UHGV virus genome: UHGV-0175781
Direction: 5' to 3' (one strand)
DNA: 44,119 bases
Source: a virus
The notes below the pieces were generated by a model. That model had not been told where the DNA came from. It did not search any database and saw only the letters and a program-made list of their open reading frames with translations. Below are positions 1,598 through 44,119 of this stretch, one piece after another; the stretch's first letter is position 1; every line of letters starts with the position of its first letter. The translations under genes were made by a program, and so were the position numbers.

Positions 1598-1626
1598 AAT
1601 ATAATGCAACCAATACGGTTATGCAA
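1598..1626 (-). promoter_or_regulatory. putative sigma70-like promoter (-35 TTGCAT, 17-bp spacer, -10 TATATT) upstream of gene 1299..1550
   Basis: read on minus strand; -35 lies inside an ATTGGTTGCAT motif, a second motif copy is in the spacer. Confidence 0.35.
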
Positions 1627-1631
1627 CCAAT

Positions 1632-1955
1632 TTACGAATAAAAATTTGGGTCGCGCGCAACGTCTACCAGATACAGGTTACTAATGCGGTTGCCATAGTG
1701 CCCTGGCGTGCGCTGGCGACACACAACGGCGTAGCCTGGAGGGATTGTATTGCCTGTCGCGATAATCCACGCCACGCGCGCTCCAGACAGCGTCTTGCCG
1801 TTGCACTCGATGCGCGTGCCACCATCGGCAGTGTTAAGGTTGCCGATCTTGCAGCCTGTGGATTTCAGGCGAATGACGCCGGTCTTGCTGTCGTAGGAAA
1901 AAAGCTGATTGGTCATTGCCACGGAAAAGTCGATGGCTTCGAATGTAGTATTCAT
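1632..1955 (-). CDS. HNH_3-like homing endonuclease-like protein, possibly degenerate
   Basis: 107 aa; pattern GK..ARVAW..TG...P.GY.VV....P...GNRISNLYLV resembles HNH_3 endonucleases but the usual His-Asp positions are replaced by CRQ. Confidence 0.4.
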   Translation of the reverse strand: MNTTFEAIDFSVAMTNQLFSYDSKTGVIRLKSTGCKIGNLNTADGGTRIECNGKTLSGARVAWIIATGNTIPPGYAVVCRQRTPGHYGNRISNLYLVDVARDPNFYS

Positions 1956-2647
1956 TTTAAATTTTCCTCATTGACCGCTATCGCGAAGCCGCGCGGGGTG
2001 AGCGACCTGATTAATTTGGTGCGGGCAGATTTGCCCCCGAGGCGACTATACTGCTTCGAGTACCCTTTTTCAACGAAAACAGGTTTCTTCTCTGGCATAC
2101 GGAAGCCGTTGCCGGTCCATAAGCAGGTCAGCTTCGGATATGAATCGCGGGCGTTGATGTATTCAGGGAATAACGGGTGTACGTCATCCTCTGGCAAATA
2201 GCCACCATACTCCCACGGGTCAAACGAGTGGTCCGGCTTACGCCATTGAGTGGATAGCACGCTGCGCGGATTCTCAATCATATATGGCACCTCAAAGAAA
2301 TCACCCAGGTAAGCGGCAATCTTCGCGGTGCGCACCGCCTTAAGCTGAAAGGCAGGGTCTTTAGCCCGCTTGCGCGGAAAAGCGGGCGCACCGCTAACTG
2401 CCAGATCCGTACACGGAGGGAACGCATATATGATATCCGGCGTACCGAAATCACCATTCATCGCGCGGTCCACGAAGTCCAGGTCTATAAACTCATTACG
2501 ATAGCGGATCCCGCGCCCATAAATCCGGTAGTCCAGGTACGATCCGTGGTCGGCTTCGGAGTAGTTGAAGCAAAAACACTTATGACCCATCTCGGCAGCA
2601 CGCTCAATCATCAAGCCGCTGCCGTCAAATAATGACCAGATAATCAT
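1952..2647 (-). CDS. short DNA (cytosine-5)-methyltransferase-like protein
   Basis: 231 aa; motif I FDGSG (FxGxG), motif IV FPPC..LAVSGA (cf. GPPCQ.FS.AG), motif VI ENP (cf. ENV); too short for a canonical target-recognition domain. Confidence 0.5.
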   Translation of the reverse strand: MIIWSLFDGSGLMIERAAEMGHKCFCFNYSEADHGSYLDYRIYGRGIRYRNEFIDLDFVDRAMNGDFGTPDIIYAFPPCTDLAVSGAPAFPRKRAKDPAFQLKAVRTAKIAAYLGDFFEVPYMIENPRSVLSTQWRKPDHSFDPWEYGGYLPEDDVHPLFPEYINARDSYPKLTCLWTGNGFRMPEKKPVFVEKGYSKQYSRLGGKSARTKLIRSLTPRGFAIAVNEENLK

Positions 2648-4068: not shown

Positions 4069-4072
4069 ATCT

Positions 4073-4297
4073 TTATTCCGCCTTTTTCCAGACTTCGGTT
4101 TCACTGTTCCAGTTCCTTTTTGTGGCGTCATAGTTGGTGCTGTGCCCGATGTGTACACCCGTCGCCCGGAAGCTATTAAATTTTTGCCAGCACACCGTTA
4201 ACGGCAGCGGGTTATTCATGCCCGCGATAAACCATACGCGATCGCCTGGTTTGCATTCGCCCAGTGTGGTGAGTCGATAATGTTCTTTCATCGTCAT
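4073..4297 (-). CDS. hypothetical protein
   Basis: 74-aa ORF with GGAGA SD directly upstream of ATG 4297. Confidence 0.6.
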   Translation of the reverse strand: MTMKEHYRLTTLGECKPGDRVWFIAGMNNPLPLTVCWQKFNSFRATGVHIGHSTNYDATKRNWNSETEVWKKAE

Positions 4298-4303
4298 GTC
4301 TCC

Positions 4304-4327
4304 AAAAAATGGCGGGACAAGCCCGCC
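4304..4327 (-). terminator. hairpin (GGCGGG-loop-CCCGCC) plus T6 on minus strand; intra-operon attenuator-like
   Basis: seen in sequence between genes 4335..4508 and 4073..4297; contains one GGCGGGACAA iteron-like unit. Confidence 0.35.
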
Positions 4328-4334
4328 GTATTAA

Positions 4335-4508
4335 TTATTTTTGCTCTGCTCGGTAGCGGCGCTGCCGTTCGCGCTCTTTTTTATTGCGGCACGATTTGCA
4401 CTCTGCCCGATACCCGTCCGGGCTTCGCGCAGTCTTACCGGTGTATTTATGGAACTGGGACAGCGGTTTAACGCAGCCGCAATTACTGCAACGTTTTTCT
4501 TCAACCAT
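4335..4508 (-). CDS. small zinc-ribbon-like protein with basic C-terminus (probable start at internal ATG; ORF extends to 4580)
   Basis: CSNCGC...C..C cysteine pattern followed by KKERERQRRYR; GAGGA SD before the internal ATG. Confidence 0.45.
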   Translation of the reverse strand: MVEEKRCSNCGCVKPLSQFHKYTGKTARSPDGYRAECKSCRNKKERERQRRYRAEQK

Positions 4509-4548
4509 TTCTAAAATCCTCGATAGTGCTAACCGGCCCACTATACCG

Positions 4549-4827
4549 CTACGCGACCAACTCAGCAACCAATAAATCACAGTCTGCTATGTTGTCGATA
4601 ACGCGAACGTCCGCACCGCGGCGGGCCATTCGCTCATGTTCTCGTATCTGGTGCGGCTTCGGTTTTCCTCCGGGGCGCTTCACTTCGACGAACACTATTT
4701 TGCCGTTGATGATGATAATCAGATCGGGCGCACCCGCGCGCCCCTCCCATGCCACTTTACGGCAGAATCCGCCTACGGCTTTAACCAACTTCATAAGGTG
4801 ACTTTGGATCTTGCCTTCTGGTGTCAT
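4549..4827 (-). CDS. VRR-NUC domain nuclease (PD-(D/E)xK fold)
   Basis: 92 aa; GAPDLIII...GKIVFVEVKRPGG matches the VRR-NUC D...E.K core. Confidence 0.7.
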   Translation of the reverse strand: MTPEGKIQSHLMKLVKAVGGFCRKVAWEGRAGAPDLIIIINGKIVFVEVKRPGGKPKPHQIREHERMARRGADVRVIDNIADCDLLVAELVA

Positions 4828-5015
4828 TTGGTTTGCAATTCCACGTTACGCAGGCGGAGGTCTACCGACACATCAGATCGACCGGTCAGCGCCAGCGCCA
4901 GGTTTTCAGGAGTAACAAGTGCCGTAATGGTCTTGCCACGTTCCAGTCTAATGACGATTCGAATCTCGTCATTGTCCGTCGCGCCCGCGCGCATTATGCT
5001 CATTTCTGCTTTCAT
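4824..5015 (-). CDS. hypothetical protein (start at internal ATG; ORF extends to 5060 but would overlap polymerase stop)
   Basis: ORF track; internal Met 16 placed just downstream of the polymerase stop at 5020. Confidence 0.45.
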   Translation of the reverse strand: MKAEMSIMRAGATDNDEIRIVIRLERGKTITALVTPENLALALTGRSDVSVDLRLRNVELQTK

Positions 5016-5019
5016 AATA

Positions 5020-7311
5020 TTATTTCCTGTACCTGTACATAATGTCGCCTTCGGCGGCAAGTGGGAAGCCTTTCGCCCAAATAGGCAGGTCGCACATCAG
5101 CGCGCATAGCTCCTCGGTCGTGTAGTCGTCAGTATCCGGAACTTCGGTGATCAATTCATCGTGCACTGACAGGACGATCTCGTATCCCGCGGATTCAACG
5201 CCAGGCATGGACCATGCGAGGATATCGCGACACAGCGCCTGCACGATGTTTTCCGTCAGTTTGCCGCCGTAGGTATACTGGAAGCCCCACTGGCGCGTCG
5301 TCTGATTCTCGCCCTGGTATTTAATGCGGGTGCTGGTGCGTTTCTTGCCAGTATCTTCGTCGATCTCGGTAGTGACAGACAGCGCGATGCCCGGATAACT
5401 CATGATGCGCCCTGACGGCAACTCAATTTTAAGCCACCACCCCGCCGCGTTCGGGTCGTCGCGCTCCTCGTCGAAGGTTGGGTCATGCTTCGCCTTCGTG
5501 CGAACAATCTTAAGCGCTTTCCTGCCATCCGGGCGAACGTTCGCGCCAGCCCAGTACGCTTTGCCTGGATTGCGGATTGCACACAACACCGCGTCTTCCA
5601 GTTCGGCCCAAAAGGCTACCGTCTTCGGGTGGGCCTCACGCCACATACGTTTGATCGCGTCACACGTCAACCACACGTTTTTCGGCAGTATATAAGTTGG
5701 GCGCTCGTCCTTCTTGCCAGGCTTCGGCGGGCGCTTCGCTTCGTTGATTCGGGCGTACTCATAACCACGTTTCGCCGCCGCCCATATGTGGTCTGGGAAT
5801 GTGCCCTTCATCACGTCAGCCATCGCGTAAAGGTCGAGGCCCAGGTTTTTAGCGAACTGCAAGAACGCCGCAACGCCGCCGCCATAGCCTAGTCCCAATT
5901 CGCACGCCTTACCGATCTGGCGTAAGTCTTTGCGGTTGGCTTTAATGTATTCCGGGTCGAGGCCAAACATCTTACCGGCAGTTTCACAATAAATATCGCG
6001 ACCCGCCCTAAACACCATTAGCGCGGTTTTCTCGCCAGCGATCCAGGCGAGGCCACGCCCTTCCACGTTAGAATAGTCCGCTACGACAAACTTCTTTCCC
6101 TTAGCCGGAATAATGCACCCGCGAACGGTCGAGGCTGTTAACTTCGATATGTCATACGCCCAGTGTGCGGTCCCGCGTAACAGGGAGTTGATGCCGTTGG
6201 TAAGCATGTGCGACCGCACCCAAAACGCGACGTCGCTCTCGCCTTCACGGCGCTTAATCTTCCCTTCGTGGTCGTCGCTATACTCGCCGCGTGCCAGGTT
6301 TTGCGGCTGGAAGCCCTTACCGGCCCAGCGTAGCGTGCGCTTTGCCCCACCATACTGAAGACAACCACGGCGGCGACCATCGGCAGACAGCCCATTTACG
6401 AGCGGATTGTACTTAGTCGACGCCGTTGATGATGCCCCGAGGCGCATCTCGATAAGCACTTTGCCCTCGTCAGGGAAGTCTGGATCTTCAAGCAGGTCGT
6501 TAAGCGTGGATTTCTGCGCGTTGTGGATCGTGAACGCAGGCGCGAGGTCGCGCAGCGCGGGCAAGAAGTCATTGCCGGTCAGCTTACCGCCGAAGCGCTC
6601 CCAGGCTTCTTCCTTCAATTCTTCCTTATGCGCCTGCACCGCTTTGATCGCGGCGTTCGCCAGGTCAACGTCCACATAGAAGCCGCGGTCATTGATCAAC
6701 TGGTCAATAAGCAGGATTTCGTCTTCCTTCGGCGTGTTGCCCCAGTCCGGTATGCGCCAATAGACTTCCCTCATAGCGATGATATCCAACGCGGCATAGC
6801 GCAGGAATTTAGCCCACTCCTCGGGGTGCGTCTCGCGCGTGTAGCGGCGGATTTTGTAGGTCTTAGGGGTTGGCTTACAGAATCGTTTGATCAGCGCCTT
6901 GCCCGCCTTATCCTTCGCGTGCTCTGCGTCAACGCCCAACACCTGGCACTGCATATCGAGGCCACCCGGCAGCGCGTGTCGAAAGGCCATAATCATGGTG
7001 TCTTCGATCTGGCACACTGGCAGGTCAATGCCCCACTTCTCGCGAATGACCAGGCGGTCAAACAGGAGGCCGTTAGCCATCACTATTTTTGCTTTCTTGC
7101 GGGATACCCTGCGGAGCGCCTTGCGCAGTTCACGCGGCATTGTTGGGGACTCTGTGCAATCCCATGTCTGCACGCGGCCCTCGTCGATGGCGTAGGTGCA
7201 AATCATAATCTCGGTTGTTGGGTGCTCTGCGTAGGCGTATGCGCCCACTTTCTTCAGGTCCACCCCGCTAAATGTCTCGGTATCGAGAAAAAGGCGTTCG
7301 AAGTCTTTCAT
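5020..7311 (-). CDS. family A DNA polymerase (Pol I-like) with N-terminal 3'-5' exonuclease domain
   Basis: 763 aa; Exo I motif LFLDTETF; motif B K....GLGYGGG; motif C VLSVHDELITEV. Confidence 0.9.
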   Translation of the reverse strand: MKDFERLFLDTETFSGVDLKKVGAYAYAEHPTTEIMICTYAIDEGRVQTWDCTESPTMPRELRKALRRVSRKKAKIVMANGLLFDRLVIREKWGIDLPVCQIEDTMIMAFRHALPGGLDMQCQVLGVDAEHAKDKAGKALIKRFCKPTPKTYKIRRYTRETHPEEWAKFLRYAALDIIAMREVYWRIPDWGNTPKEDEILLIDQLINDRGFYVDVDLANAAIKAVQAHKEELKEEAWERFGGKLTGNDFLPALRDLAPAFTIHNAQKSTLNDLLEDPDFPDEGKVLIEMRLGASSTASTKYNPLVNGLSADGRRRGCLQYGGAKRTLRWAGKGFQPQNLARGEYSDDHEGKIKRREGESDVAFWVRSHMLTNGINSLLRGTAHWAYDISKLTASTVRGCIIPAKGKKFVVADYSNVEGRGLAWIAGEKTALMVFRAGRDIYCETAGKMFGLDPEYIKANRKDLRQIGKACELGLGYGGGVAAFLQFAKNLGLDLYAMADVMKGTFPDHIWAAAKRGYEYARINEAKRPPKPGKKDERPTYILPKNVWLTCDAIKRMWREAHPKTVAFWAELEDAVLCAIRNPGKAYWAGANVRPDGRKALKIVRTKAKHDPTFDEERDDPNAAGWWLKIELPSGRIMSYPGIALSVTTEIDEDTGKKRTSTRIKYQGENQTTRQWGFQYTYGGKLTENIVQALCRDILAWSMPGVESAGYEIVLSVHDELITEVPDTDDYTTEELCALMCDLPIWAKGFPLAAEGDIMYRYRK

Positions 7312-7478
7312 TGCTTAATCCTCACTACGGCGTCAGCGCTGCCGAACATGGAGAAGATACCGTCGGAAAGGGTTATCTCCTCGCCGTTGTTGCGAATCTC
7401 GGCAACGGTGAAATACTCGCCCAGCAATTTAGACCATACCTGCATTCCGACTTTTACTTCGCTGGCTTTAATGCGCAT
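7308..7478 (-). CDS. small hypothetical protein translationally coupled to the DNA polymerase (stop overlaps pol ATG)
   Basis: 56-aa ORF found by hand translation (below the ORF-track size cut-off); ATGA overlap with the polymerase start; AGGA SD. Confidence 0.4.
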   Translation of the reverse strand: MRIKASEVKVGMQVWSKLLGEYFTVAEIRNNGEEITLSDGIFSMFGSADAVVRIKQ

Positions 7479-7493
7479 TTTTCATTGTCCTAT

Positions 7494-7518
7494 TAAAAAG
7501 CCCGCATTAAGCGGGCTT
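7494..7518 (-). terminator. rho-independent terminator (AAGCCCGC-loop-GCGGGCTT plus T-run on minus strand)
   Basis: seen in sequence just downstream of the SSB-like gene stop at 7537. Confidence 0.55.
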
Positions 7519-7536
7519 GAATAGTGGGCTTTGCCC

Positions 7537-8259
7537 TTAACGGCGGCGACGTTTACGTGGCGCTTCGTCTTCGTCGTCGTCATCATCTTCGTCATCGCGT
7601 GGCTTACGACGTTTACGAGGTTTTTCATCTTCGTCATCGTCATCACGACGTTTTGACTTTTTGGACTTGCGTGGCACTTCATCTTCGTCGTCGTCGCCCA
7701 GGTCTTCGTCGGAGCAAGAAGATCCGCCACCGCCGAAGGCTTCGCCGTCATCGCGGAAGCGCAGACCCAAAAGACCGGCACCGAGTCCCTTGCCGTTGGT
7801 ATTGTTCCACGCCCAAATATCCAGGGACACGTTGCAATAACAACCGGAGTAGATCTCCTGGCCTTCGATCTCGTCGCCTTCTACGGTCAGACCTTGTTCA
7901 GTCTGCTTCTCGCCGAGTGACGTTTGAATGTTTGGCTGTTTGAACGATTTAGCGTTGATGTACAACATGCCTTCGAATTCTTCGGTTACTTCGTCGCGCT
8001 CGTCACCGTCGCGGACTGCGCATTCCTTAGAATCCTGGGCGTAGTGGCGGTCCATCCACTTATCAGCATTCTTCTCGGATTTCAGCTTGTCGGTGAGCAC
8101 TGCGCGCGCTGCCGCTTCCACTTTGTCCACCTGCGGATCTTCTTTATCAAGAAGAATCACTGCACGGTATGCCGGTTTTTGTCCATCCTGTTTAGGGGTA
8201 TCACGTTCCCAAATTTTAAGGAAACATACGCGCACATTTTTCAGGTTGACTTTAGCCAT
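7537..8259 (-). CDS. ssDNA-binding protein, DUF2815-like, with alternating acidic/basic C-terminal tail (ORF extends to 8280)
   Basis: core IYSGCYCNVSLDIWAWNNTNGKGLGAGLLGLRFRDDGEAFGG matches the DUF2815 phage SSB pattern; C-terminal 60 aa are blocks of DDDDEDE and PRKRRK. Confidence 0.6.
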   Translation of the reverse strand: MAKVNLKNVRVCFLKIWERDTPKQDGQKPAYRAVILLDKEDPQVDKVEAAARAVLTDKLKSEKNADKWMDRHYAQDSKECAVRDGDERDEVTEEFEGMLYINAKSFKQPNIQTSLGEKQTEQGLTVEGDEIEGQEIYSGCYCNVSLDIWAWNNTNGKGLGAGLLGLRFRDDGEAFGGGGSSCSDEDLGDDDEDEVPRKSKKSKRRDDDDEDEKPRKRRKPRDDEDDDDDEDEAPRKRRRR

Positions 8260-8349
8260 TTTCCAATTCCTCATTCTCACATGTATCGGGGTTATTATGA
8301 GCCACCCCGTTCGGCTTGGTTGCTAATCTACTTGGTTGCGCCTAAGCGG

Positions 8350-8592
8350 TCAAGCATTTTCATTAAAAAGATTTCGGGTCACGTAGTTGGTGGCGTTCTC
8401 GATCCAGCTTAGCGGCGGGCGTTCGATGTTATTTTCCACCCAATCGACGGCAACTTCGCTATAGCCGTCATCCAGCCCGCGGGTCGGATGGCGAATCATC
8501 CACGCCACCATTAACACGCCTTGCACGCAATGCAGGATAAAGCCCAGCGCGCCGAGCAAAAACATCAATAAGATTGCGAATACTTTATTCAT
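8350..8592 (-). CDS. small membrane protein
   Basis: 80 aa with N-terminal hydrophobic helix (FAILLMFLLGALGFILHCVQGVLMVAWMI). Confidence 0.5.
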   Translation of the reverse strand: MNKVFAILLMFLLGALGFILHCVQGVLMVAWMIRHPTRGLDDGYSEVAVDWVENNIERPPLSWIENATNYVTRNLFNENA

Positions 8593-10015
8593 TGCTTAAG
8601 TCCTCGTCAGTAGCTTCCGACCACGCAGGGCGAGGGTCGTCGATTGGTGCTAACACCGGTTTGGCTGGTGCGCGTGTGATTTTATCACACAGCTTCGCCC
8701 ACACTTTCGGTTTTTCGTCCTTCAGTACCTTCTCGGCATCCGTAGGGCTGAGCAATGTTTCTTTGTACATCACATCGCGCTTGATCCGGGCCTTCGTGAA
8801 GATTTCAATCACTTCGCTCTCGTCCGCCCACTTACGGATCCCTTCCCTACCGGCAACCATCTTAAGGCCCAACGATTCGCCATCGCCAGCCATGACCGCT
8901 TTGAATACCGCGGACTCGATAGCTTTGATGTGCTGGCGCATTGCGTCAAGTCCTTCATAAGCCTTGCGCAGTTCCGCCGCGCTCATAGCGCCGGGGGTGG
9001 ATTCCTTCTTGCCCCGTTTAGCACGTCTGGCAGCCTTCGGGGCTTCGCGGGCCATATTGCGGTCGTGGTTGGCGCACTCTTCCTCGGTTGCCACGCTCAC
9101 GTCGTCGCCCAGGTCTTCGTCGGTTGCCGTTGGTGGCGTCATCGTGTCGATTGCGGCCTTCGCCCGGACGCGGCACTGGTCCGCGAATCTGCACCACTGG
9201 CACGCATCAATGCTCGGTCGGAAGTCAGCGCGGGTTAGTCCCTTTTTGCCGCGTGCGTACGCATCGAGCGCGGCGATAGCGCGCTTGGACGCAAACTTCG
9301 CGAATATCTCCAGCGCTTCTACCGAAATATCCCACTCCGACGCCCCGCCGCAATACGGCTGGAAGATAACCAGGCGAACGGTCGTAATGTCGTACATAGT
9401 TTGCAGCTTGCGCAGCAGTCCGAGCGCGTACAACATAAGCTGTTTGTTCTCTTTCGCCTCGACCTTATGCCGCCCGGTCTTCAGGTCGCCAACAATCAGC
9501 ATGTACGTCCCATCGGTCTTTTTCATGACCATGACCATATCGGCAGTACCGAACGTTTTAATCCTGTTGCCGTCGATCTCGTAGCCTGAGTGAAGGACGC
9601 GGGTCAGATCGGCGCGCATCTCAAGCTGGACAAACTCCGCCACTTCGAGGAGCGGTCGCCAGTGGTCGATGTACGCGTCGCACTGTTTCACCATGTCGTC
9701 GTTGACCAGTACGCCGCCTTTCGGTGCTTTAGGGTGTGCCTTTACTGGCCCCTTGCCTTCGTTCTCGACGTAGCACCCTTTATACGTCTTCGCGGTTATC
9801 AGCTTCTCACCGGCGATAATGCGGTTTAGCACCACCTCAGATACGGTGTGCATACTCGTACCGTTAATCGCGGCTTGCCCGGATTCGTTCGGGATATCTT
9901 TTTCCACCACCAGGGCGGCAGGGCAACCCATCCATTTTTTAGCACCGGATGGGCCAAGTAATGAGTGTTCCGTATTGCTACCGGATTGCGTTTTACGTTT
10001 TGGTTTAATCGCCAT
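8585..10015 (-). CDS. PD-(D/E)xK Cas4/RecB-like exonuclease (DUF2800-like)
   Basis: 476 aa; N-terminal LLGPSGAKKWMGCP, VGDLKTG motif, C-terminal cysteine cluster CQWCRFADQC typical of Cas4/AddB-type nucleases. Confidence 0.7.
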   Translation of the reverse strand: MAIKPKRKTQSGSNTEHSLLGPSGAKKWMGCPAALVVEKDIPNESGQAAINGTSMHTVSEVVLNRIIAGEKLITAKTYKGCYVENEGKGPVKAHPKAPKGGVLVNDDMVKQCDAYIDHWRPLLEVAEFVQLEMRADLTRVLHSGYEIDGNRIKTFGTADMVMVMKKTDGTYMLIVGDLKTGRHKVEAKENKQLMLYALGLLRKLQTMYDITTVRLVIFQPYCGGASEWDISVEALEIFAKFASKRAIAALDAYARGKKGLTRADFRPSIDACQWCRFADQCRVRAKAAIDTMTPPTATDEDLGDDVSVATEEECANHDRNMAREAPKAARRAKRGKKESTPGAMSAAELRKAYEGLDAMRQHIKAIESAVFKAVMAGDGESLGLKMVAGREGIRKWADESEVIEIFTKARIKRDVMYKETLLSPTDAEKVLKDEKPKVWAKLCDKITRAPAKPVLAPIDDPRPAWSEATDEDLSNE

Positions 10016-10203
10016 TATTCCACCCTTGAAAACTGAGCAATGTAATATTCATGTTTAACCCCAGCCCGCTTCGCGGCTTCGTTCATGGTAGCCGCCAGTC
10101 CTCTGGCTTGAGTCCAGCAGCAATTCCAGTTCTGATTCATAACGATTTCCGGTTGCTCGTCGCCGGTAATACGGCAACGAAATAAAACAAAGAATATAGC
10201 CAT
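10015..10203 (-). CDS. hypothetical protein
   Basis: 62-aa ORF with GGGAGA SD; stop overlaps downstream ATG (TAATG). Confidence 0.5.
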   Translation of the reverse strand: MAIFFVLFRCRITGDEQPEIVMNQNWNCCWTQARGLAATMNEAAKRAGVKHEYYIAQFSRVE

Positions 10204-10455
10204 TTATTTTGTCTCCCAGCGGTCAATTGTTTTTGCTTCGGATGCAACTGCAAAGCGAACATATTCCAGATTGGAGTCCGCCCAAATAAAAAAGTCGGGG
10301 TTAGTAAAGGTGGTGCGCTTAATTTGCGCGGGGGTGTTACGGCGTTTATCTATTACGGCAACGCGTGACTGAAAGCTGCCGATGCGTTCGAATAGCCAAT
10401 AGTACGGGCGCTGGTCGCGGGAATCCACCGCCTCGATTAGCGTGAAGCGTGCCAT
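10204..10455 (-). CDS. hypothetical protein
   Basis: 83-aa ORF with AGAGGA SD. Confidence 0.55.
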   Translation of the reverse strand: MARFTLIEAVDSRDQRPYYWLFERIGSFQSRVAVIDKRRNTPAQIKRTTFTNPDFFIWADSNLEYVRFAVASEAKTIDRWETK

Positions 10456-10467
10456 TGTCTCGTCCTC

Positions 10468-10495
10468 TAAAAATAGGCCCGCAGATTAGCGGGCC
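10468..10495 (-). terminator. hairpin (GGCCCGC-AGATTA-GCGGGCC) plus T-rich run on minus strand, after the first early gene
   Basis: seen in sequence between 10504 and 10455. Confidence 0.4.
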
Positions 10496-10503
10496 GGATA
10501 ATA

Positions 10504-11043
10504 TTAGTCTTCCAGTTCGAAATAGGTTTCGACGATTTCTTTCAGGTCTTTGTGGAAGTCTTCTACGTCGTCATCTTCCAGTTTAGCGATTGATTTGATC
10601 TCGAACGCTTCCAGCAGGTCGTCGAATTCGTCGTTCGCATCGTCGTCATCGCCACCGGCAATAATCGCGGCATACTGTTTGATTTCGTCGCGCATCTCTG
10701 CCAGCGGGTCGGCATCTTTCTTACCTTTGCCTTTCGCTGGTGCTTTTTTACCCTTCGCCGGTTTTTCGTCTTCGTCATCCTCGTCGTCATCCTCTACGAC
10801 TTCTTTTTTAGCCTTACCTTTAGACTTGGTTTCTTTTGCCGCGCCTTTTTTCGTTTTAGGCGTATCTTCGACTTCGTCCTGATCGTAGTCGTCTTCGACT
10901 TCAGTCTCCGGCTTGGCCTTGCCCTTCTTAGCAGTGCCGTTTGCTTTTGGGTCTACGGCAGCGCCAACAGTTTCATAATGTTTAGCGATGGTTTCCAGTG
11001 CTACTACGCCGCGAGTAATCAGGTTTATGAATTGTTCCAACAT
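10504..11043 (-). CDS. highly charged, low-complexity early protein (acidic blocks alternating with lysine-rich blocks)
   Basis: 179 aa; first gene downstream of the near-consensus leftward promoter; GGAGA SD. Confidence 0.6.
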   Translation of the reverse strand: MLEQFINLITRGVVALETIAKHYETVGAAVDPKANGTAKKGKAKPETEVEDDYDQDEVEDTPKTKKGAAKETKSKGKAKKEVVEDDDEDDEDEKPAKGKKAPAKGKGKKDADPLAEMRDEIKQYAAIIAGGDDDDANDEFDDLLEAFEIKSIAKLEDDDVEDFHKDLKEIVETYFELED

Positions 11044-11103: not shown

Positions 11104-11132
11104 ATATTAGATTGGTTGCAGAAGGGAGTCAA
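11104..11132 (-). promoter_or_regulatory. leftward early promoter, near-consensus sigma70 type (-35 TTGACT, 17-bp spacer, -10 TAATAT)
   Basis: read on minus strand; spacer contains TGCAACCAAT motif; about 55 bp upstream of gene 10504..11043. Confidence 0.5.
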
Positions 11133-11248: not shown

Positions 11249-11277
11249 TTGACACCTTGCGGTTTTAGGTGTAGTTT
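11249..11277 (+). promoter_or_regulatory. putative rightward promoter (-35 TTGACA, 17-bp spacer, weak -10 TAGTTT)
   Basis: seen in sequence upstream of gene 11309..11638. Confidence 0.3.
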
Positions 11278-11308
11278 CGTTGGTCATCAACCAACCGGAG
11301 ACAGAATA

Positions 11309-11638
11309 ATGAATATCAACGACGCAATCGAAATGTTAACGAAGACTGTTTGCAGTGAGACAAGCCGGTCATGGGCGTATACCGATGCCGTGGGTGCGGT
11401 GCTATTTGAAATCGAACGTCTGCGACTTACCGAAAAAGAATTGCGCGCCAGGCTGGAATTGCTCAACGGTACGGCGGCGAGCAAGCTGCAGAAGCACAAT
11501 GAAGAAATGGAAGAATACAAAAAACAGGTTATCCGTTTGCGCGCCGAGGGCAAATCTTGGGCGATGATTGCCGAGTTGACCGGAATTAATCAGAGCACAG
11601 TGCGCTCCTGGGTACGCAATAATAAAACTTCCAAATAA
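11309..11638 (+). CDS. HTH DNA-binding protein (candidate regulator or replication helper; ORF extends to 11249)
   Basis: C-terminal helix-turn-helix GKSWAMIAELTGINQSTVRSWV; GGAGA SD before ATG 11309. Confidence 0.6.
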   Translation: MNINDAIEMLTKTVCSETSRSWAYTDAVGAVLFEIERLRLTEKELRARLELLNGTAASKLQKHNEEMEEYKKQVIRLRAEGKSWAMIAELTGINQSTVRSWVRNNKTSK

Positions 11639-13913: not shown

Positions 13914-13988
13914 TTTTTGCGCGCATTGGTTGCCGGTATGGGAATTCCCATATCGCTAAGAGATTAATTTTTGCGCGCATTGGTTGCC
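13907..13988. repeat. two 28-bp direct repeats (AGATTAATTTTTGCGCGCATTGGTTGCC) flanking a 14-bp perfect palindrome ATGGGAATTCCCAT
   Basis: seen in sequence; first repeat overlaps the primase/helicase stop codon; a third partial copy (CGCATTGGTTGCC) at about 14011. Confidence 0.7.
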
Positions 13989-14071
13989 ATTTTGAGTGTT
14001 TTTAGCTGGTCGCATTGGTTGCCGTGTGATGTAAATATAATGCATAGTTATGCAATAAAACTGCATAAACC

Positions 14072-14231
14072 AAACGGGACAAAAAGCGGGACAAACAGGA
14101 GGCGGGACAAAGCGGGACAGCACCCCTGTCCCGCCAGTGCTGCCGCGGCTTCCAGAGGAGCGGGACAGCGGGACAGCACCCCAGTCTTTCAGACTAGACG
14201 GGGGGTCTGGCACCCCCCTCGTCTGAGACTG
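14072..14231. repeat. iteron array copy 1: at least 7 GCGGGACA(R) units (one inverted pair) followed by a ~50-bp bulged hairpin
   Basis: seen in sequence; about 85% identical to 30330..30491; flanked by CTGCATAAA boxes and an AT-rich tract. Confidence 0.8.
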
Positions 14232-14390
14232 CATAAAATCCAGGATTGCAAAATACACGGCAGCATGTTGTGGATTGCGGTCGTCACTGAACTAGGCAAC
14301 CAATACGAGTTGCAGAATGGTGGGTGAGAAATGCCGTTTGCAGTCACAACTGATAGCGATCAACTTTTTCATGCGCGTGATTAATATTGG

Positions 14391-14419
14391 TTGCATTCGC
14401 GCCAGCACCCTGCTAGATT
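14391..14419 (+). promoter_or_regulatory. putative promoter (-35 TTGCAT within ATTGGTTGCAT, 17-bp spacer, -10 TAGATT)
   Basis: seen in sequence about 30 bp upstream of gene 14448. Confidence 0.4.
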
Positions 14420-14447
14420 GGTTGCACACCAACAAGAGGACTGAACA

Positions 14448-14714
14448 ATGGCACACAAAGACCTGGTAGACGAATTGATTGAACTGCTCGAGGCTGAGGA
14501 CAATGAGGACCTTCAAGAGAGCGCGGAACACGAAGACCTGGCAGACGTATTGCTTGAACTGATCGAGGCTGAGAAAAATGCGGACCTTAAAGCGCGTGCG
14601 GCGCACATACTCGGCAACTTCAAGAAAGAGCACCGTTACGAAGCTATGCGCGTCTCGGCGCAAGAAGCGCTGATTAATTTCCTGAATAGCGTAACCATCA
14701 CGAAGAAGGACTGA
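14448..14714 (+). CDS. small acidic protein with internal tandem duplication
   Basis: 88 aa; strong SD AAGAGGA; two ~23-aa repeat units (DLVDELIELLEAEDNEDL / DLADVLLELIEAEKNADL). Confidence 0.6.
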   Translation: MAHKDLVDELIELLEAEDNEDLQESAEHEDLADVLLELIEAEKNADLKARAAHILGNFKKEHRYEAMRVSAQEALINFLNSVTITKKD

Positions 14715-15020: not shown

Positions 15021-15290
15021 ATGGACCGTAGGCGAGCTAAACAGCTTTCGTGGTACATTCCCCTCCACTGCATACGAATATGGGCTGAGAATGCGATTGA
15101 GGGCGATTCTGTGTTCTGGAGCTACCGCGATGATGTGAAGCCATTAACGCAGACCCGCTACTTGCGCCAGTTCGCCAGGGAGCATGGGTTATCCATAAAA
15201 ACGTCCTTGCAACCAATTGGCATTCGTATTACATTACGCCGGAAGCCCGCCGTTGAGCGGGTAGGCAAACACTGGAGACTGAGAAAATGA
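15021..15290 (+). CDS. hypothetical protein
   Basis: 89-aa ORF with AAGGGG SD. Confidence 0.5.
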   Translation: MDRRRAKQLSWYIPLHCIRIWAENAIEGDSVFWSYRDDVKPLTQTRYLRQFAREHGLSIKTSLQPIGIRITLRRKPAVERVGKHWRLRK

Positions 15291-16881: not shown

Positions 16882-18024
16882 ATGCACCCGCAAACTAAAA
16901 TTACCGATGAGCAATTGATCGCAGAAATTCAGGCAGGGACTACGGTTAAAGAGATTGCGAAGAAATACGGTATTGCCCTCCGAAACGTCTACATGCGGAA
17001 AGCCCGCCTGTCGAAAAAAGGCATTGGACACGGCAATGATACCGTAATCCGCAAGCGCGTTGCTGATGGCTTCGGTGTTAAGCGCGTATCTGCCTTGGTG
17101 CGCGGCAATGGCGAAGAGGTCATGTCGTGGGTCATCACTGAGCAGGACAAGGAGCGCCAACTCGAAGCCATGCGCGCTGTTGTCGAGGGTATGAACAGCG
17201 AAATCACACCGGCAGCGCCAGTAAAATCCCCTCCAGTACCGATCCAGGCGCTTGACTTGCTCAACCTGTACACCGTGTCAGACTTCCACCTGGGCATGTT
17301 GGCATGGGGCGAGGAGACTGGCGAAGACTGGGATATGGCGATCGCCGAAGACCTGTTCTACCGCTGGTTTGTCGAAGCCTTCGCACGCGCACCAGACGCA
17401 GGCACTGCCGTGATCAATATCCTCGGCGATATGGCGCACTTTGATAGCCTTGATGCCGTCACACCGGCAAGCGGTCACGTACTTGACGCTGACACCAGAT
17501 ACCAGAAGTTGGTCCGCTACATGATTCGCATGGTGCGCAACGTGGTAGACCTGGCGCTGCAAAAACACCACAAAGTCAAACTGCTAATCGTCCAGGGTAA
17601 TCATGACGAGTCGGGCATGATTTGGCTTGCTGAGATGTTCAACACGCTGTACGAGAACGAGCCGCGCGTCGATGTGGATACGTCCCCGGACGTCTACAAA
17701 ATGGTGCAGCACGGTAAGACCACGCTATTTTTCCACCACGGGCACAAAGCGCGATTCGATGCTATCGAGCAGGTTATGATCGCTAAATTCAGACAGGCGT
17801 TCGGGTCAAGCGAATACAGCTACGCGCACGTAGGTCATTTGCACCACCAGAAGATTGTCGAGTCTCGCAACATGATTGTTGAACAGCACCGGACGCTCGC
17901 AGCGAAAGACGCCTACGCCAGTCGTGGCGGTTGGATGTCCGGTCGCAGCGCAAACGTCATCACCTATAGCGCCAACTACGGCGAAGTAGCGCGCTTAACC
18001 ATTAGCCCGGAAATGTTGAAGTAA
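16882..18024 (+). CDS. HTH domain fused to calcineurin-like metallophosphoesterase
   Basis: 380 aa; N-terminal HTH TVKEIAKKYGIALRNVYMRKARL; phosphoesterase motifs DFHLG, GDMAHFD, GNHDE, HHGH, GHLHH. Confidence 0.7.
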   Translation: MHPQTKITDEQLIAEIQAGTTVKEIAKKYGIALRNVYMRKARLSKKGIGHGNDTVIRKRVADGFGVKRVSALVRGNGEEVMSWVITEQDKERQLEAMRAVVEGMNSEITPAAPVKSPPVPIQALDLLNLYTVSDFHLGMLAWGEETGEDWDMAIAEDLFYRWFVEAFARAPDAGTAVINILGDMAHFDSLDAVTPASGHVLDADTRYQKLVRYMIRMVRNVVDLALQKHHKVKLLIVQGNHDESGMIWLAEMFNTLYENEPRVDVDTSPDVYKMVQHGKTTLFFHHGHKARFDAIEQVMIAKFRQAFGSSEYSYAHVGHLHHQKIVESRNMIVEQHRTLAAKDAYASRGGWMSGRSANVITYSANYGEVARLTISPEMLK

Positions 18025-23158: not shown

Positions 23159-23923
23159 TTAGCGAGGAATGCCGCAAATCTCGTTGAGTGTTTTCACATC
23201 CAGCGCCACCGCCGTGGATTTTGGCTTGTCCGGGTATGGGATGAATTGCTCAACTTCAGGCCATGCTTTAATCAGCTTCTTGTCAGTATTGTGCAGGTCC
23301 AGTACACCGGTAACGGTGAGTTTGAACGCGTCATACTTCGCACGCAACTCGCGACGTGCCTTGTCGTTGCGGTCCAGGCGCTTACAGAAGTCATGGTCCG
23401 CCGGGTAGTCTGCGCGACCGCGTGGGAGATATATCGGCAGCGCTTTCCCTTCCTCGTCCACTTCGCACACTGACGCGAGCATAACTGTCTCGAACCCCGG
23501 AACGATATCGCCGAGATCAGGCGAGAGCTTATTCATATATTTCTCTTCCCAGTATCCGCGATGTACGCGGTATTGGCGACCGTCACCGCTCAAGGACAAG
23601 GTGCGAACATTTCCGCCTGCGTTGATTTCAAAGGTGGCGTCGTAAACGCTGCCGATACCCTTCGGGCGGTCGGTGTTATAACTATACGTCGCCTTGTTGG
23701 CGTATACGCTGACGCCGTACATCTGCGACTGGTCATCGCGGATTGCCTTGATATGCTCGCGTAGCGCGGCGAATGTGCGAATGCCGTCCGGCATACAGTC
23801 CAGCGTGATTGCGTACGCCAGGTCGCGAGAGTCCATCATGATTGTTTTGGCTTCGGTAGCGATTTCGTGGTCGCGCAGGATGTTAGCTAGGATCTGATTT
23901 TTAATGTCTTTCGTCAGTCTCAT
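23159..23923 (-). CDS. hypothetical protein, opposite-strand insertion in the morphogenesis block (ORF extends to 23968)
   Basis: about 254 aa; GAGGA SD before internal ATG; own predicted promoter and flanking terminators; no recognisable motif. Confidence 0.6.
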   Translation of the reverse strand: MRLTKDIKNQILANILRDHEIATEAKTIMMDSRDLAYAITLDCMPDGIRTFAALREHIKAIRDDQSQMYGVSVYANKATYSYNTDRPKGIGSVYDATFEINAGGNVRTLSLSGDGRQYRVHRGYWEEKYMNKLSPDLGDIVPGFETVMLASVCEVDEEGKALPIYLPRGRADYPADHDFCKRLDRNDKARRELRAKYDAFKLTVTGVLDLHNTDKKLIKAWPEVEQFIPYPDKPKSTAVALDVKTLNEICGIPR

Positions 23924-23989
23924 TTTTATGTCCTCATTGTTGGTGTGCAACCAATATAGCGCAACCAATTCCCGCAGTGCAAGCGAATT

Positions 23990-30175: not shown

Positions 30176-30177
30176 CG

Positions 30178-40670: not shown

Positions 40671-40698
40671 GTATTACACCGCTCAATCACGAATGCAA
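40671..40698 (-). promoter_or_regulatory. putative promoter for the lipoprotein gene (-35 TTGCAT in ATTGGTTGCAT, 16-bp spacer, -10 TAATAC)
   Basis: read on minus strand. Confidence 0.4.
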
Positions 40699-40721
40699 CC
40701 AATTTATACGAGGATTTAGCT

Positions 40722-43745: not shown

Positions 43746-43808
43746 AGTATTACCCTTTTTAGCGAGGGGCGATATTGCCCCCGACGTGATTAAGATACTG
43801 CAACCAAC

Positions 43809-44119
43809 CTATTGGTTGCAAGTGAATTTTGCAACGTTTATTGCGTAAATTTTCGGGACCAAATCGCCACACGCCCGACGAATTGCCGCGATGTTCTTCT
43901 CGCAATCTTCAATGATGACCAGTTCCGACACGTCCGCATAGCAGACCATTTTGAACACGGCGCACGCCTTAAACTCTGGCGGCGGGGTATCGTCCAGCAT
44001 GTGGCGCATAAACAACCGGCCTGTCGGGAATACTTCCAGTTGTTCGGCGGTGGTTTCCCAGCATTCCCGCTGCCGGTTGGTCAGATACGCGATTTCGAAG
44101 CCTTGCTCTTTGTACATGG
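43809..44119 (-). CDS. HAD-superfamily phosphatase-like protein, C-terminal part (probably continuous with 160..1 across the window junction)
   Basis: contains HAD motif II-like AYLTNR, a lysine region and motif IV-like VIIEDCEKN; frame is continuous with the ORF at 160..1 if ends are joined. Confidence 0.5.
   Translation of the reverse strand, partial: MYKEQGFEIAYLTNRQRECWETTAEQLEVFPTGRLFMRHMLDDTPPPEFKACAVFKMVCYADVSELVIIEDCEKNIAAIRRACGDLVPKIYAINVAKFTCNQ

What the first reader, a model, noticed from the sequence alone, without database searches (positions are those of the whole stretch)
14384..14430. Genome-wide 9-mer ATTGGTTGC confined to intergenic regions; a likely phage promoter or operator signature
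ATTGGTTGC or its complement occurs about 17 times at approximately 1606, 1623, 8319, 8336, 11111, 13926, 13982, 14014, 14388, 14418, 14292, 23946, 23960, 40694, 43801 and 43813, with one more inside a gene 3' end near 4565. A random 9-mer is expected well under once in 44 kb on both strands, and the genome is roughly 90% coding. In several copies the motif supplies the -35 hexamer (TTGCAT) of a sigma70-like promoter with a 16-17 bp spacer and a TAnAnT -10 (14391..14419, 1598..1626, 40671..40698). In the leftward early promoter it sits in the spacer, and at 43798..43822 two copies form the inverted repeat TGCAACCAA-CCTA-TTGGTTGCA, which looks like an operator. This may be the promoter consensus plus binding site of a phage transcription factor.
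Basis: partly seen in the sequence, partly recalled or inferred. Interest (0 to 1): 0.7.

Follow-up and report, generated by a model that had tools for sequence, protein, structure and literature searches.

The report
Phage-wide 9-mer operator in promoters
A nine-base word, ATTGGTTGC, sits at fixed positions inside almost every early and middle promoter of this E. coli phage; it is probably the docking site of a small phage-encoded DNA-binding protein that times gene expression, but no binding has been shown.

Summary
The window is a complete Dhillonvirus (HK578-like coliphage) genome. ATTGGTTGC occurs 15 times against about 0.5 expected and is the commonest 9-mer. Thirteen copies lie in the 6.8% of the genome that is noncoding (P=6e-14). 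The two copies inside genes also sit in promoter-like contexts, and three more intergenic copies differ by one base.

All 28 loci that encode a homologue of gp34 carry the word. Two syntenic outgroup phages with an XRE regulator in that gene slot have none.

The word is not a fixed promoter element. It takes several registers: over a weak -35 exactly 19 nt before a -10; reversed in the spacer of strong TTGACn promoters, abutting the -10; over the -10/+1; and as a promoter-free cluster after the primase-helicase gene.

I conclude it is an operator for a phage factor. The best candidate is gp34 (11309-11638), a coiled coil plus helix-turn-helix protein in the Cro-like slot. Repression of early promoters is the likeliest action.

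Binding and the direction of regulation are inferred, not shown. This is a new member of a known kind (L5 stoperators, P1 C1 operators, T1 repeats).

The parts
1623..1631 (-). Motif copy, class A. Its TTGC plus AT form the -35 (TTGCAT, 1626-1621) of the promoter for the gene at 1299-1550; the -10 TATATT lies at 1603-1598.
   Evidence: invariant in 11 unique orthologues
1606..1614 (-). Motif copy in the spacer of the same promoter, ending 2 nt before the -10.
4565..4573 (-). Motif copy, class A, inside the 3' end of the resolvase-like gene. TATAGT (4545-4540) follows 19 nt after the motif, upstream of the ORF at 4073-4504 and the helicase operon. A degenerate second copy, GTTGGTCGC, lies 3 nt downstream.
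   Evidence: the 19-nt spacing is kept in L007 and L013
8331..8339 (+). One-mismatch copy (CTTGGTTGC), reversed relative to the leftward promoter TTGACC-17-TAGATT (8353-8325). It fills the spacer and abuts the -10 (class B), upstream of the SSB/PolA operon.
8315..8323 (+). One-mismatch copy immediately downstream of the -10 of the same promoter, in the +1 region.
11111..11119 (+). Motif copy reversed in the spacer of the leftward promoter TTGACT-17-TAATAT (11132-11104), class B, upstream of the gene at 10504-11043.
   Evidence: the same layout occurs in L013, and in L007 two tandem copies fill the spacer
11287..11295 (-). Degenerate copy (GTTGGTTGA) inside the palindrome GTTGGTCATCAACCAAC (11279-11295). 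It starts 2 nt after the -10 of the rightward promoter TTGACA-17-TAGTTT (11249-11277) that drives gp34. This is a candidate autoregulatory site.
   Evidence: L007 and L009 have an exact copy 14 nt before the gp34 start
11309..11638 (+). gp34, 109 aa: an N-terminal helix (3-18), a long helix (26-79) and a C-terminal HTH (84-91, 95-107). Candidate motif-binding protein. It is the first gene of the rightward operon, directly before the primase-helicase gene.
   Evidence: Pfam HTH_23, HTH_28 and Sigma70_r4_2; conservation; model; phyletic co-occurrence
13925..14022 (+). Three co-oriented copies (13925, 13979, 14014), all ATTGGTTGCC, directly after the primase-helicase stop codon and embedded in 33-nt direct repeats. 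The first two have no promoter register. The third lies 13 nt before a conserved TATAAT (14036-14041).
14296..14304 (-). Inverted partner copy (ATTGGTTGCC) that, with the three copies above, brackets the CGGGACA repeat region.
14386..14394 (+). Motif copy, class A: -35 TTGCAT at 14391-14396, a 17-nt spacer, and -10 TAGATT at 14414-14419. This is the promoter for the rightward genes from 14448.
14417..14425 (+). Motif copy whose ATT ends the -10 of the same promoter, so it covers -10 to +1 (class C).
15209..15217 (-). Copy inside the gene at 15021-15290. Read on the + strand it gives -35 TTGCAA (15207-15212), 17 nt, then TACATT (15230-15235): a candidate internal promoter.
   Evidence: motif and -10 are invariant in 17 orthologues while neighbouring codon positions vary
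23947..23969 (-). Two copies (23961, 23947) in the promoter of the minus-strand Nmad5 gene (23162-23923): TTGCAC (23982-23977), 18 nt, TATATT (23958-23953). One copy is in the spacer and one is over -10/+1.
40695..40703 (-). Motif copy, class A: -35 TTGCAT (40698-40693) and a -10 at about 40676-40670, upstream of the minus-strand superinfection-exclusion-like gene (40423-40638). A degenerate inverted copy, TTTGGTTGA, lies at 40656-40664.
43800..43819 (.). Inverted pair: GTTGGTTGC on the minus strand at 43800 and ATTGGTTGC on the plus strand at 43811. The reversed copy gives -35 TTGCAA (43821-43816). The forward copy lies in the 18-nt spacer before TATCTT (43797-43792). This is the promoter for the gene at 43191-43745.

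Best explanation
ATTGGTTGC is the recognition word (operator) of a phage-encoded, sequence-specific DNA-binding protein. It is built into the host-sigma-70-type promoters of the early and middle genes of Dhillonviruses. The most likely binder is gp34 (11309-11638).

gp34 is a 109-aa protein with a variable N-terminal helical part, a long coiled-coil-like helix and an invariant C-terminal helix-turn-helix. It is the first gene transcribed rightward from the divergent early control region, the slot that Cro occupies in lambdoid phages.

Proposed sequence of events:
1. gp34 is made early from a strong promoter.
2. As it accumulates it occupies copies that lie in the spacer, over the -10/+1 or over the -35 of about ten promoters. 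It also occupies a degenerate site just after its own promoter.
3. This turns those promoters down.

At promoters where the word replaces a proper -35 at a fixed 19-nt distance from the -10, gp34 could instead help RNA polymerase.

The promoter-free cluster after the primase-helicase gene may block read-through into the repeat-rich presumed origin, or couple the regulator to replication.

Shown: the motif's excess, its location, its registers, its conservation and its co-occurrence with gp34. Inferred: which protein binds, and whether it represses or activates.
For: 1. Excess and sharpness. There are 15 exact copies against 0.56 expected. One- and two-mismatch variants occur at chance levels.

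2. Noncoding bias. Thirteen of 15 copies lie in 6.8% of the genome.

3. Discrete registers. I analysed 45 sites from the window, L007 and L013. TAnnnT peaks exactly 19 nt after the motif (8 sites; other offsets have 0-4). Seven reversed copies have a TAnnnT starting 0-1 nt after them, and five of these have a TTGACn -35 at a 17-18 nt spacing. Four forward copies end 2 nt before a -10. Two copies overlap the -10. In L007 the spacer of the leftward promoter is made of two tandem copies. Spacer positions are not read by sigma-70, so a separate binder is needed (established knowledge of sigma-70 promoters).

4. Footprint. Motif positions are close to 100% conserved in 11-19 unique orthologous sequences while the spacers between copies vary. 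Mean conservation is 0.95 against 0.85 for other intergenic positions (P=3.5e-5).

5. gp34 has the only DNA-binding domain found among the roughly 25 proteins scanned. Residues 47-106 are invariant in 17 diverged homologues while the N-terminus is hypervariable. The structure model has pLDDT 82, with a long helix followed by an HTH.

6. Phyletic pattern. All 28 gp34-encoding loci carry the word, including metagenomic relatives whose gp34 is about 60% identical or less. Serratia phage Smarc3 and Salmonella Cornellvirus CECAV_044 are syntenic but have XRE-type regulators in that slot. Both have 0 copies. Smarc3 has its own word (GATTAATCC) in promoter spacers.

7. A site lies between the -10 and the start codon of gp34's own promoter in every lineage examined.

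8. Intergenic regions without the motif mostly hold terminator hairpins.
Against: - No binding, transcription-start or expression data exist for any Dhillonvirus in the searchable literature.
- The gp34-motif link rests on co-occurrence within one clade, so it is confounded by shared ancestry. I found no case where the HTH and the motif changed together. Even the most diverged homologue (P0027 in L013) keeps the same word.
- Exact 9-mers with almost no degeneracy are unusual for transcription-factor sites.
- Spacings between paired copies are irregular (start-to-start 14, 16, 17 and 31 nt, and an inverted pair 11 nt apart). This needs a monomeric or very flexible binder.
- Orientation relative to transcription is only weakly biased: by my count, 12 of 17 assignable sites.
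- I did not scan about half of the phage's proteins for DNA-binding domains.
Confidence: 0.6

Rival explanations
1. The word is an intrinsic promoter element read by host RNA polymerase alone. It would be a phage-specific flavour of the -35 (TTGCnn) and of the -10 plus discriminator (TAnATTGGTTGC), with no phage factor involved.
For: In 8-10 sites the TTGC provides a -35-like hexamer exactly 17 nt from a -10. In two sites the ATT ends a -10. Upstream flanks are A/T-rich.
Against: The same 9-mer sits in promoter spacers, in reversed orientation, and in a promoter-free cluster. Sigma-70 needs only about 3-4 of these bases, yet all nine are invariant. Syntenic phages of related enterobacteria lack the word entirely.
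Confidence: 0.12
2. The copies are primarily replication iterons. gp34, or the primase-helicase, would bind them to assemble the replisome at an origin next to the primase-helicase gene. The promoter copies would be secondary, as DnaA boxes are in promoters.
For: Six copies lie within 13925-14425, directly after the primase-helicase gene. Four of them share the extended form ATTGGTTGCC and sit within 33-nt repeats that bracket an A/T-rich stretch and a repeat region. The cluster is conserved in L007 and L013. The gp34 gene abuts the primase-helicase gene.
Against: Twelve of 18 copies lie elsewhere, at precise promoter registers. Spacing in the cluster is irregular (54 and 35 nt). A different repeat, CGGGACA, forms the iteron-like arrays in this region and in a second region. 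Outgroups have XRE-type transcription regulators in the gp34 slot.
Confidence: 0.1
3. A host transcription factor binds the word, for example a GntR-family protein such as PdhR, whose half-site is (A)ATTGGT. The phage would be tying its promoters to host physiology.
For: ATTGGT is identical to the PdhR half-site (PdhR box AATTGGTnnnACCAATT, PMC7660256). Some copies form TTGGT-N5-ACCAA palindromes (14417, 23947, 11279-11295).
Against: No PdhR-type palindrome overlaps any copy. Matches with up to 3 mismatches number 11 against 14.7 expected. The invariant TGC would fall in the unspecified spacer of a PdhR box. The word is kept in phages of Sodalis and of unknown hosts, but is absent from the Serratia and Salmonella relatives.
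Confidence: 0.06
4. The word acts in RNA, as a 5'-UTR or processing signal. AUUGGUUGC would be recognised by a nuclease or a translational regulator.
For: Two copies lie 22-23 nt before start codons and could form a small hairpin next to the ribosome-binding site.
Against: About a third of the copies are antisense to local transcription. Most lie at or upstream of the predicted start sites, so they would not be transcribed from their own promoter. No Rfam family matches.
Confidence: 0.03

Closest known systems
Mycobacteriophage L5 / Cluster A stoperators and their monomeric repressor (gp71; Brown et al. 1997 as cited in PMC4319613; structure in PMC9283540; PMC6550527)
   Same: A short asymmetric word is repeated many times across a phage genome, mostly in short intergenic spaces. 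It is bound by one phage-encoded HTH protein, and some copies overlap promoters.
   Different: Stoperators are 13 bp, strictly co-oriented with transcription, and act mainly by blocking elongation in a prophage. Here the phage has no integrase or prophage state that I found. Orientation is mixed, and most copies sit at exact promoter registers. gp34 shows no sequence match to any solved repressor.
The 22-bp asymmetric intergenic repeats of coliphage T1 and relatives (16-20 copies; function unknown; PMC4319613 citing Roberts et al. 2004)
   Same: Virulent enterobacterial siphophages carry a dispersed, predominantly intergenic, asymmetric repeat of unknown role. Copy number is similar.
   Different: The sequence, length (22 against 9 bp) and phage family differ. 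No promoter-register analysis or candidate binder was reported for T1. Here a candidate binder and fixed promoter registers are identified.
Phage P1 C1 repressor with dispersed asymmetric operators (own knowledge, not checked here)
   Same: One repressor controls many operators scattered around the genome, and each operator is asymmetric and overlaps a promoter.
   Different: P1 operators are 17 bp and the phage is temperate. Homology was not tested directly.
Lambda Cro / XRE-type early regulators
   Same: gp34 occupies the same slot: first gene of the rightward early operon, facing a divergent promoter region and followed by replication genes. Syntenic outgroup phages carry XRE-type proteins in that slot.
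   Different: Cro binds palindromic operators at two loci. gp34 is not an XRE-family protein: HTH_3 scores below its cut-off, and the best matches are HTH_23 and Sigma70_r4_2. Its word is asymmetric and occurs at about 18 sites.
DnaA boxes (asymmetric 9-mers used at oriC and in promoters; own knowledge)
   Same: An asymmetric 9-mer, probably read by a single HTH domain, is clustered next to replication genes and also placed in promoters.
   Different: There is no homology to DnaA. The cluster here has not been shown to be an origin.
T4 MotA box / sigma appropriation at middle promoters (own knowledge)
   Same: Class A promoters combine a good -10 with a phage-specific word in place of a consensus -35, at a fixed distance.
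   Different: The word is centred near -36, not -30. No MotA or AsiA matches were found among the proteins scanned. The same word also sits in spacers and over -10/+1, which fits repression.

Membership tests
Sigma-70 promoter core element | A TTG-containing -35 hexamer 16-18 bp upstream of a TAnnnT -10 | tested here: met
   Met for a subset only. Eight to ten sites have a -10 exactly 19 nt (or 18) after the motif, so TTGCnn acts as the -35. Other copies lie in spacers, over the -10, or away from any promoter.
Sigma-70 promoter core element | A single fixed position and orientation relative to the transcription start | tested here: not met
   There are at least four registers and both orientations, plus a promoter-free cluster at 13925-14304.
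Sigma-70 promoter core element | Transcription starts mapped next to the element | not testable with these tools
   No TSS or RNA-seq data for Dhillonviruses were found.
Dispersed asymmetric operators / stoperators (L5 gp71 type) | Asymmetric word, many copies, genome-wide, mainly intergenic | tested here: met
   There are 15 exact and 3 near-exact copies, and 13 of the 15 exact copies are noncoding.
Dispersed asymmetric operators / stoperators (L5 gp71 type) | One orientation with respect to transcription | tested here: inconclusive
   By my count, 12 of 17 assignable copies are co-oriented with the local genes and 5 are reversed (binomial about 0.07).
Dispersed asymmetric operators / stoperators (L5 gp71 type) | A cognate phage-encoded repressor that binds the word | not testable with these tools
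   gp34 is a candidate only, from domain content, conservation and co-occurrence.
Dispersed asymmetric operators / stoperators (L5 gp71 type) | Sequence homology of the regulator to Cluster A repressors | tested here: not met
   A profile search of all PDB chain sequences, which should include the solved stoperator repressor, gave no such match at E<=1. Foldseek gave only generic HTH domains.
Replication-origin iterons | Tandem, regularly spaced direct repeats confined to the origin next to the initiator gene | tested here: not met
   A cluster exists after the primase-helicase gene, but its spacing is 54 and 35 nt with one inverted copy, and two thirds of all copies lie elsewhere.
Host PdhR (GntR-family) box | Palindrome AATTGGTnnnACCAATT (PMC7660256) | tested here: not met
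   No match with up to 3 mismatches overlaps any copy: 11 matches against 14.7 expected.
Cro/XRE-type early regulator (for gp34) | Membership of the HTH_3/XRE family | tested here: not met
   HTH_3 scores E=0.0035 and 17.8 bits, below its 23-bit cut-off. HTH_23 (30.8 bits) and Sigma70_r4_2 (27.9 bits) pass theirs.
Cro/XRE-type early regulator (for gp34) | Position as first gene of the rightward early operon, before the replication genes | tested here: met
   Window gene order. XRE-type regulators occupy the same slot in Smarc3 and CECAV_044.
T4 MotA-box / sigma appropriation | MotA and AsiA homologues encoded by the phage | tested here: not met
   No such Pfam or PHROG matches among the roughly 25 proteins scanned. 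The remaining proteins were not scanned.
Known RNA families (Rfam) | A match to a curated covariance model | tested here: not met
   No matches at gathering score anywhere in the window.

The most novel reading that the evidence does not exclude
gp34 is a two-way temporal switch that carries a sigma-region-4-like HTH. Bound to reversed copies in the spacers of strong TTGACn promoters, it shuts off the earliest transcription. Bound to forward copies centred near -36, always 19 nt from a -10, it stands in for -35 recognition and activates middle promoters. That would be a one-protein analogue of T4 sigma appropriation or of phi29 p4. The same protein, through the ATTGGTTGCC cluster, would also gate transcription into the replication origin, or its firing.
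Probability: 0.2. Interest if true: 0.7.

Novelty: new member of a known kind. Interest (0 to 1): 0.5.

Why it matters
Dhillonviruses are common laboratory and therapy-candidate coliphages (SECphi4/6/18; BASEL Bas14-18 according to PMC11564622). I found no description of their transcription programme.

This analysis gives a concrete and cheap-to-test map:
- about ten promoters;
- one 9-bp word that marks them;
- one 109-aa candidate regulator.

If confirmed, it would explain how a small virulent siphophage without its own RNA polymerase orders early and middle expression. It would give a portable operator/regulator pair for phage engineering. It would also provide a worked example for the unexplained dispersed repeats of T1-like phages.

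Tried and rejected
- **Literature.** Searches for the motif, for Dhillonvirus promoters or transcriptomes, and for genome papers on relatives found nothing relevant.
- **Host PdhR box.** It shares a half-site with the motif, but no full boxes occur at the sites.
- **Phosphoesterase (16882-18024) as the binder.** It has no HTH and is absent from motif-bearing relatives.
- **Co-variation of the HTH with the motif.** The gp34 family is tiny: three full-length representatives among 1.8 billion proteins. Even the most diverged member keeps the same word, so only presence/absence could be used.
- **Fold and sequence searches with gp34.** They returned only generic HTH domains and a weak coiled-coil match.
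- **Scan of viral contigs for paired copies (ATTGGTTGC-N5-35-ATTGGTTGC).** It returned at least 120 unrelated stretches, many of them tandem repeats. By my estimate that is about what chance gives in a collection this size, so the scan was uninformative.
- **Rfam.** Nothing matched.
- **Sigma-54, IHF, DnaA and marbox consensus sequences.** I compared these by eye from memory. None fits.
- **Degenerate copies.** One- and two-mismatch variants are at chance, so a looser motif model adds no sites beyond those listed.
Full report
**What the window is.** The 44,119-bp window is a complete, circularly permuted genome of a Dhillonvirus (an HK578/JL1/SO-1-like virulent siphophage of E. coli). It is 90-93% identical over most of its length to many deposited phages. 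One gene is split across the window ends. I transferred the gene map from phage vB_EcoS_Sponge by tblastn. Genes run leftward over 1-11043 and rightward from 11309. There are minus-strand islands at 23162-23923, 27996-28589, 40423-40638 and from 42573 onward. No phage RNA polymerase is evident in this gene map, so transcription presumably uses the host enzyme (inference).

**Checking the observation.** ATTGGTTGC occurs 15 times on the two strands, against 0.56 expected from dinucleotide shuffles, whose maximum was 3. It is the most frequent 9-mer in the genome. Fourteen coordinates are exact copies within a few bases. Three are one-mismatch variants (8315, 8331 and 43800). One exact copy inside a gene (15209) was missed.

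Noncoding DNA is 6.8% of the genome, yet it holds 13 of the 15 copies (P=6e-14). An unbiased k-mer comparison of noncoding against whole-genome counts puts this word and its sub-words at the top. The word is unusually sharp: one-mismatch variants (8 against 8.5 expected) and two-mismatch variants (112 against 99) occur at chance levels.

**Conservation.** The copies are kept in every relative I examined. Full genomes of Sponge, CHD5UKE2, SO-1, JL1, WFI and 'rolling' have 14-16 copies each. In alignments of orthologous intergenic regions, the nine positions are almost always invariant across 11-19 unique sequences. The spacers between paired copies and the flanks do vary. Mean conservation is 0.95 for motif positions against 0.85 for other intergenic positions (Mann-Whitney P=3.5e-5).

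The copy inside gene 15021-15290 is invariant, together with a TACATT 17 nt from its TTGCAA, while neighbouring codon positions vary freely. The small ORF that some records annotate over 14317-14448 changes mostly non-synonymously between relatives (my reading). I therefore treat that stretch as noncoding.

**Position relative to promoters.** The simple sigma-70 scan finds few consensus promoters, no more than in shuffles. The few that lie in intergenic regions overlap the motif. I analysed registers on 45 sites from the window and two diverged metagenomic relatives, L007 and L013. Discrete classes emerged.

- **Class A.** A TAnnnT hexamer starts exactly 19 nt after the motif in 8 sites; other offsets have 0-4. 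The motif then spans about -40 to -32, and its TTGC plus two bases is a weak -35. Window examples are 1623, 4565, 14386 and 40695. The 19-nt distance is kept in orthologues whose spacer sequence differs.
- **Class B.** The reversed motif abuts the -10 (0-1 nt away) in 7 sites, with a near-consensus TTGACn -35 at a 17-18 nt spacing in 5 of them. Window examples are 8331 in TTGACC-17-TAGATT and 11111 in TTGACT-17-TAATAT. In L007 the whole 17-nt spacer of the leftward early promoter is two tandem reversed copies.
- **Class B2.** A forward copy ends 2 nt before the -10 (1606, 23961, 43800).
- **Class C.** The motif's ATT completes the -10, so the copy covers -10 to +1 (14417, 23947).
- **Reversed -35.** Reversed copies can also supply a TTGCAA -35 (15209, 43811).

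Most promoters carry two copies. Intergenic regions without the motif mostly hold terminator-like hairpins. These include the regions before the terminase, capsid, tail and tape-measure genes.

**The promoter-free cluster.** Four copies, all of the extended form ATTGGTTGCC, lie directly after the primase-helicase stop codon (13925, 13979, 14014) and, inverted, at 14296. Two of them sit inside 33-nt direct repeats. Together they bracket an A/T-rich stretch and an array of a second repeat, CGGGACA. Equivalent clusters exist in L007 and L013. The first two copies have no promoter register. The 14014 copy lies 13 nt before a conserved TATAAT.

**Who binds it.** I scanned about 25 proteins. The only DNA-binding domain found is in gp34 (11309-11638, 109 aa): HTH_23 (30.8 bits), HTH_28 and Sigma70_r4_2 (27.9 bits), all above their cut-offs, at residues 65-105. 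PHROGs labels the family 'transposase' purely from this HTH. Deposited records call it variously transposase, resolvase or 'Gam'.

Across 17 diverged homologues, residues 47-106 are invariant while the first 45 residues are hypervariable. In CHD5UKE2 the N-terminal half is replaced but the HTH is kept. An AlphaFold2 model (pLDDT 82.5) gives a short helix, a 54-residue helix and a three-helix HTH. Foldseek finds only generic HTH domains such as LuxR/GerE, resolvase and IstA. A PDB sequence search finds nothing except a weak match of the long helix to vimentin coil 1A, which is consistent with a coiled coil.

The family is very narrow. There are 24 clusters in the 5.8-billion-protein index and three full-length representatives in the exhaustive 1.8-billion-protein search.

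**Co-occurrence.** All 28 loci that encode a gp34 homologue carry the exact word. These include metagenomic relatives whose gp34 is about 60% identical or less (L007, L009, L011, L013) and 15 IMG/VR contigs.

The two nearest syntenic outgroups have primase-helicases 44-45% identical to the window's. They are Serratia phage Smarc3 and Salmonella Cornellvirus CECAV_044. Both carry an XRE-type regulator in the slot before the primase-helicase gene, and both have zero copies of the word. Smarc3 has its own intergenic word, GATTAATCC, also placed in the spacers of TTGCnn-type promoters.

It is also absent from L007, L009 and L013, which keep the motif.

gp34's own promoter is TTGACA-17-TAGTTT at 11249-11277. 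It is followed 2 nt later by a degenerate palindromic version of the word at 11279-11295. In L007 and L009 an exact copy sits 14 nt before the gp34 start codon.

**Interpretation.** A 9-mer that is invariant at all nine positions, and that occupies spacers, -35s, -10/+1 regions and a promoter-free cluster in both orientations, cannot be explained by sigma-70 recognition alone. It behaves as a protein-binding operator.

The positions between -40 and +10 are those from which bound proteins usually occlude RNA polymerase, especially where both core elements of one promoter are covered. The likeliest action is therefore repression: early turn-down and autoregulation by a Cro-like protein. The gene's position and the XRE proteins in the outgroups fit this.

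The strict 19-nt register of class A, at promoters with poor -35s, leaves open activation at those promoters. That would give a two-way switch of the phi29 p4 or T4 MotA kind (my knowledge of those systems). The ATTGGTTGCC cluster may act as a roadblock for read-through from the gp34/primase-helicase operon into the presumed origin, as L5 stoperators do. Alternatively it may link the regulator to replication. All of this is inference. No step of binding or regulation has been shown.

**Rivals.**
- A pure host-polymerase promoter element is contradicted by the registers and by its absence from related phages.
- A primary iteron role is contradicted by the dispersal and by the irregular spacing. 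A separate repeat (CGGGACA) forms the iteron-like arrays.
- Host PdhR shares the half-site ATTGGT (PMC7660256), but no PdhR-type palindromes occur at the sites.
- An RNA-level role is contradicted by mixed strandedness and by positions upstream of the predicted starts. Rfam finds nothing.

**Comparison with known systems.** The closest known kinds are:
- the stoperators of Cluster A mycobacteriophages with their monomeric repressor (PMC9283540, PMC6550527);
- the dispersed asymmetric operators of P1 C1 (own knowledge);
- the unexplained 22-bp asymmetric, mostly intergenic repeats of T1-like coliphages, with 16-20 copies and an explicitly unknown role (PMC4319613).

The Dhillonvirus word differs in sequence and length. 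It lies at exact promoter registers with mixed orientation, in a virulent phage. Its candidate regulator has no detectable homology to those repressors. I found no description of it in the searchable literature. I therefore rate it a new member of a known kind.

**Verdict.** The motif is an operator rather than a promoter consensus. gp34 is a good candidate binder, but the phosphoesterase is not. Interest is moderate (0.5). A conserved regulatory word in a phage is not surprising in itself. However, the result gives a complete and easily tested regulon hypothesis for a widely used phage genus.

Noticed in passing
window 14067-14186 and 30173-30440: A second repeat family, (G)CGGGACA, is strongly enriched in noncoding DNA: 14 of 17 copies of the 8-mer. 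It forms two arrays of direct and inverted repeats about 16 kb apart, with about 120 bp of shared sequence. One array lies after the primase-helicase gene and the other between the tail chaperone and tape-measure genes. The Sodalis phage SO-1 record annotates the equivalents as repeat 'region B' and 'region A'. The layout recalls the ori/crr repeat pair of phage P4, which its primase-helicase binds (own knowledge). In L013 a different word (TGGCACCCC) is enriched instead.
   Followed up: partly
window 27996-28589 (-): A 197-aa HNH endonuclease gene (PHROG 3377/374) is inserted on the minus strand between the tail-completion and major-tail genes. It has no counterpart in Sponge at this position. 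A TTGACT-17-TACTAT promoter-like site at 28649-28621 lacks the ATTGGTTGC word. It looks like a free-standing homing endonuclease outside the phage's regulon.
   Followed up: partly
window 4073-4504 (-): The homologue of Sponge gp23 (87% identity over 143 aa) carries an in-frame stop codon in this genome. It also begins with TTG where the relative starts. This may be a pseudogene, a split gene or a sequencing error.
   Followed up: no
window 23162-23923 (-): This minus-strand gene inside the late region matches Pfam Nmad5 (nucleotide modification associated domain 5, E=1e-60). It is driven by a two-copy ATTGGTTGC promoter. With the Dam-like and Dcm-like methylases (362-847, 1952-2647), it hints at DNA modification in this phage.
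   Followed up: no
window 11309-11443 (the N-terminal 45 aa of gp34): The N-terminal third of gp34 is hypervariable or replaced outright between otherwise 90-98% identical phages, while the C-terminal 60 aa are invariant. The pattern suggests diversifying selection or module swapping on a partner-binding or defence-exposed surface.
   Followed up: partly
window 1570-1597 (-): Directly after the -10 of the promoter at 1598-1626 lies a conserved terminator-like hairpin with a T-run (GGGTGTCC-GGTT-TGGACGCCC-TTTTT). The predicted start site falls inside the 5' arm. Upstream read-through transcripts could therefore be terminated, while transcripts started at this promoter could not form the stem. 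This is inference only.
   Followed up: no
L004 (JL1) 3330-3440 and L002 (CHD5UKE2) 14200-14310: After the lysis genes, relatives carry an extra promoter module: TTGACT-c-GCAACCAAC-N8-CATACT-GCAACCAAT. Two reversed copies follow the -35 and the -10. The window lacks this module. Copy number therefore varies with mosaic gene cassettes, each of which brings its own copy of the word.
   Followed up: partly
L014 (Serratia phage Smarc3) 2517, 3635, 7: This syntenic outgroup has its own intergenic-only word, GATTAATCC (part of the palindrome GGATTAATCC). Two copies lie in the spacers of TTGCAG/TTGCCA...TAnnnT promoters, and the phage has an XRE regulator in the gp34 slot. This is a possible parallel regulon.
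   Followed up: partly
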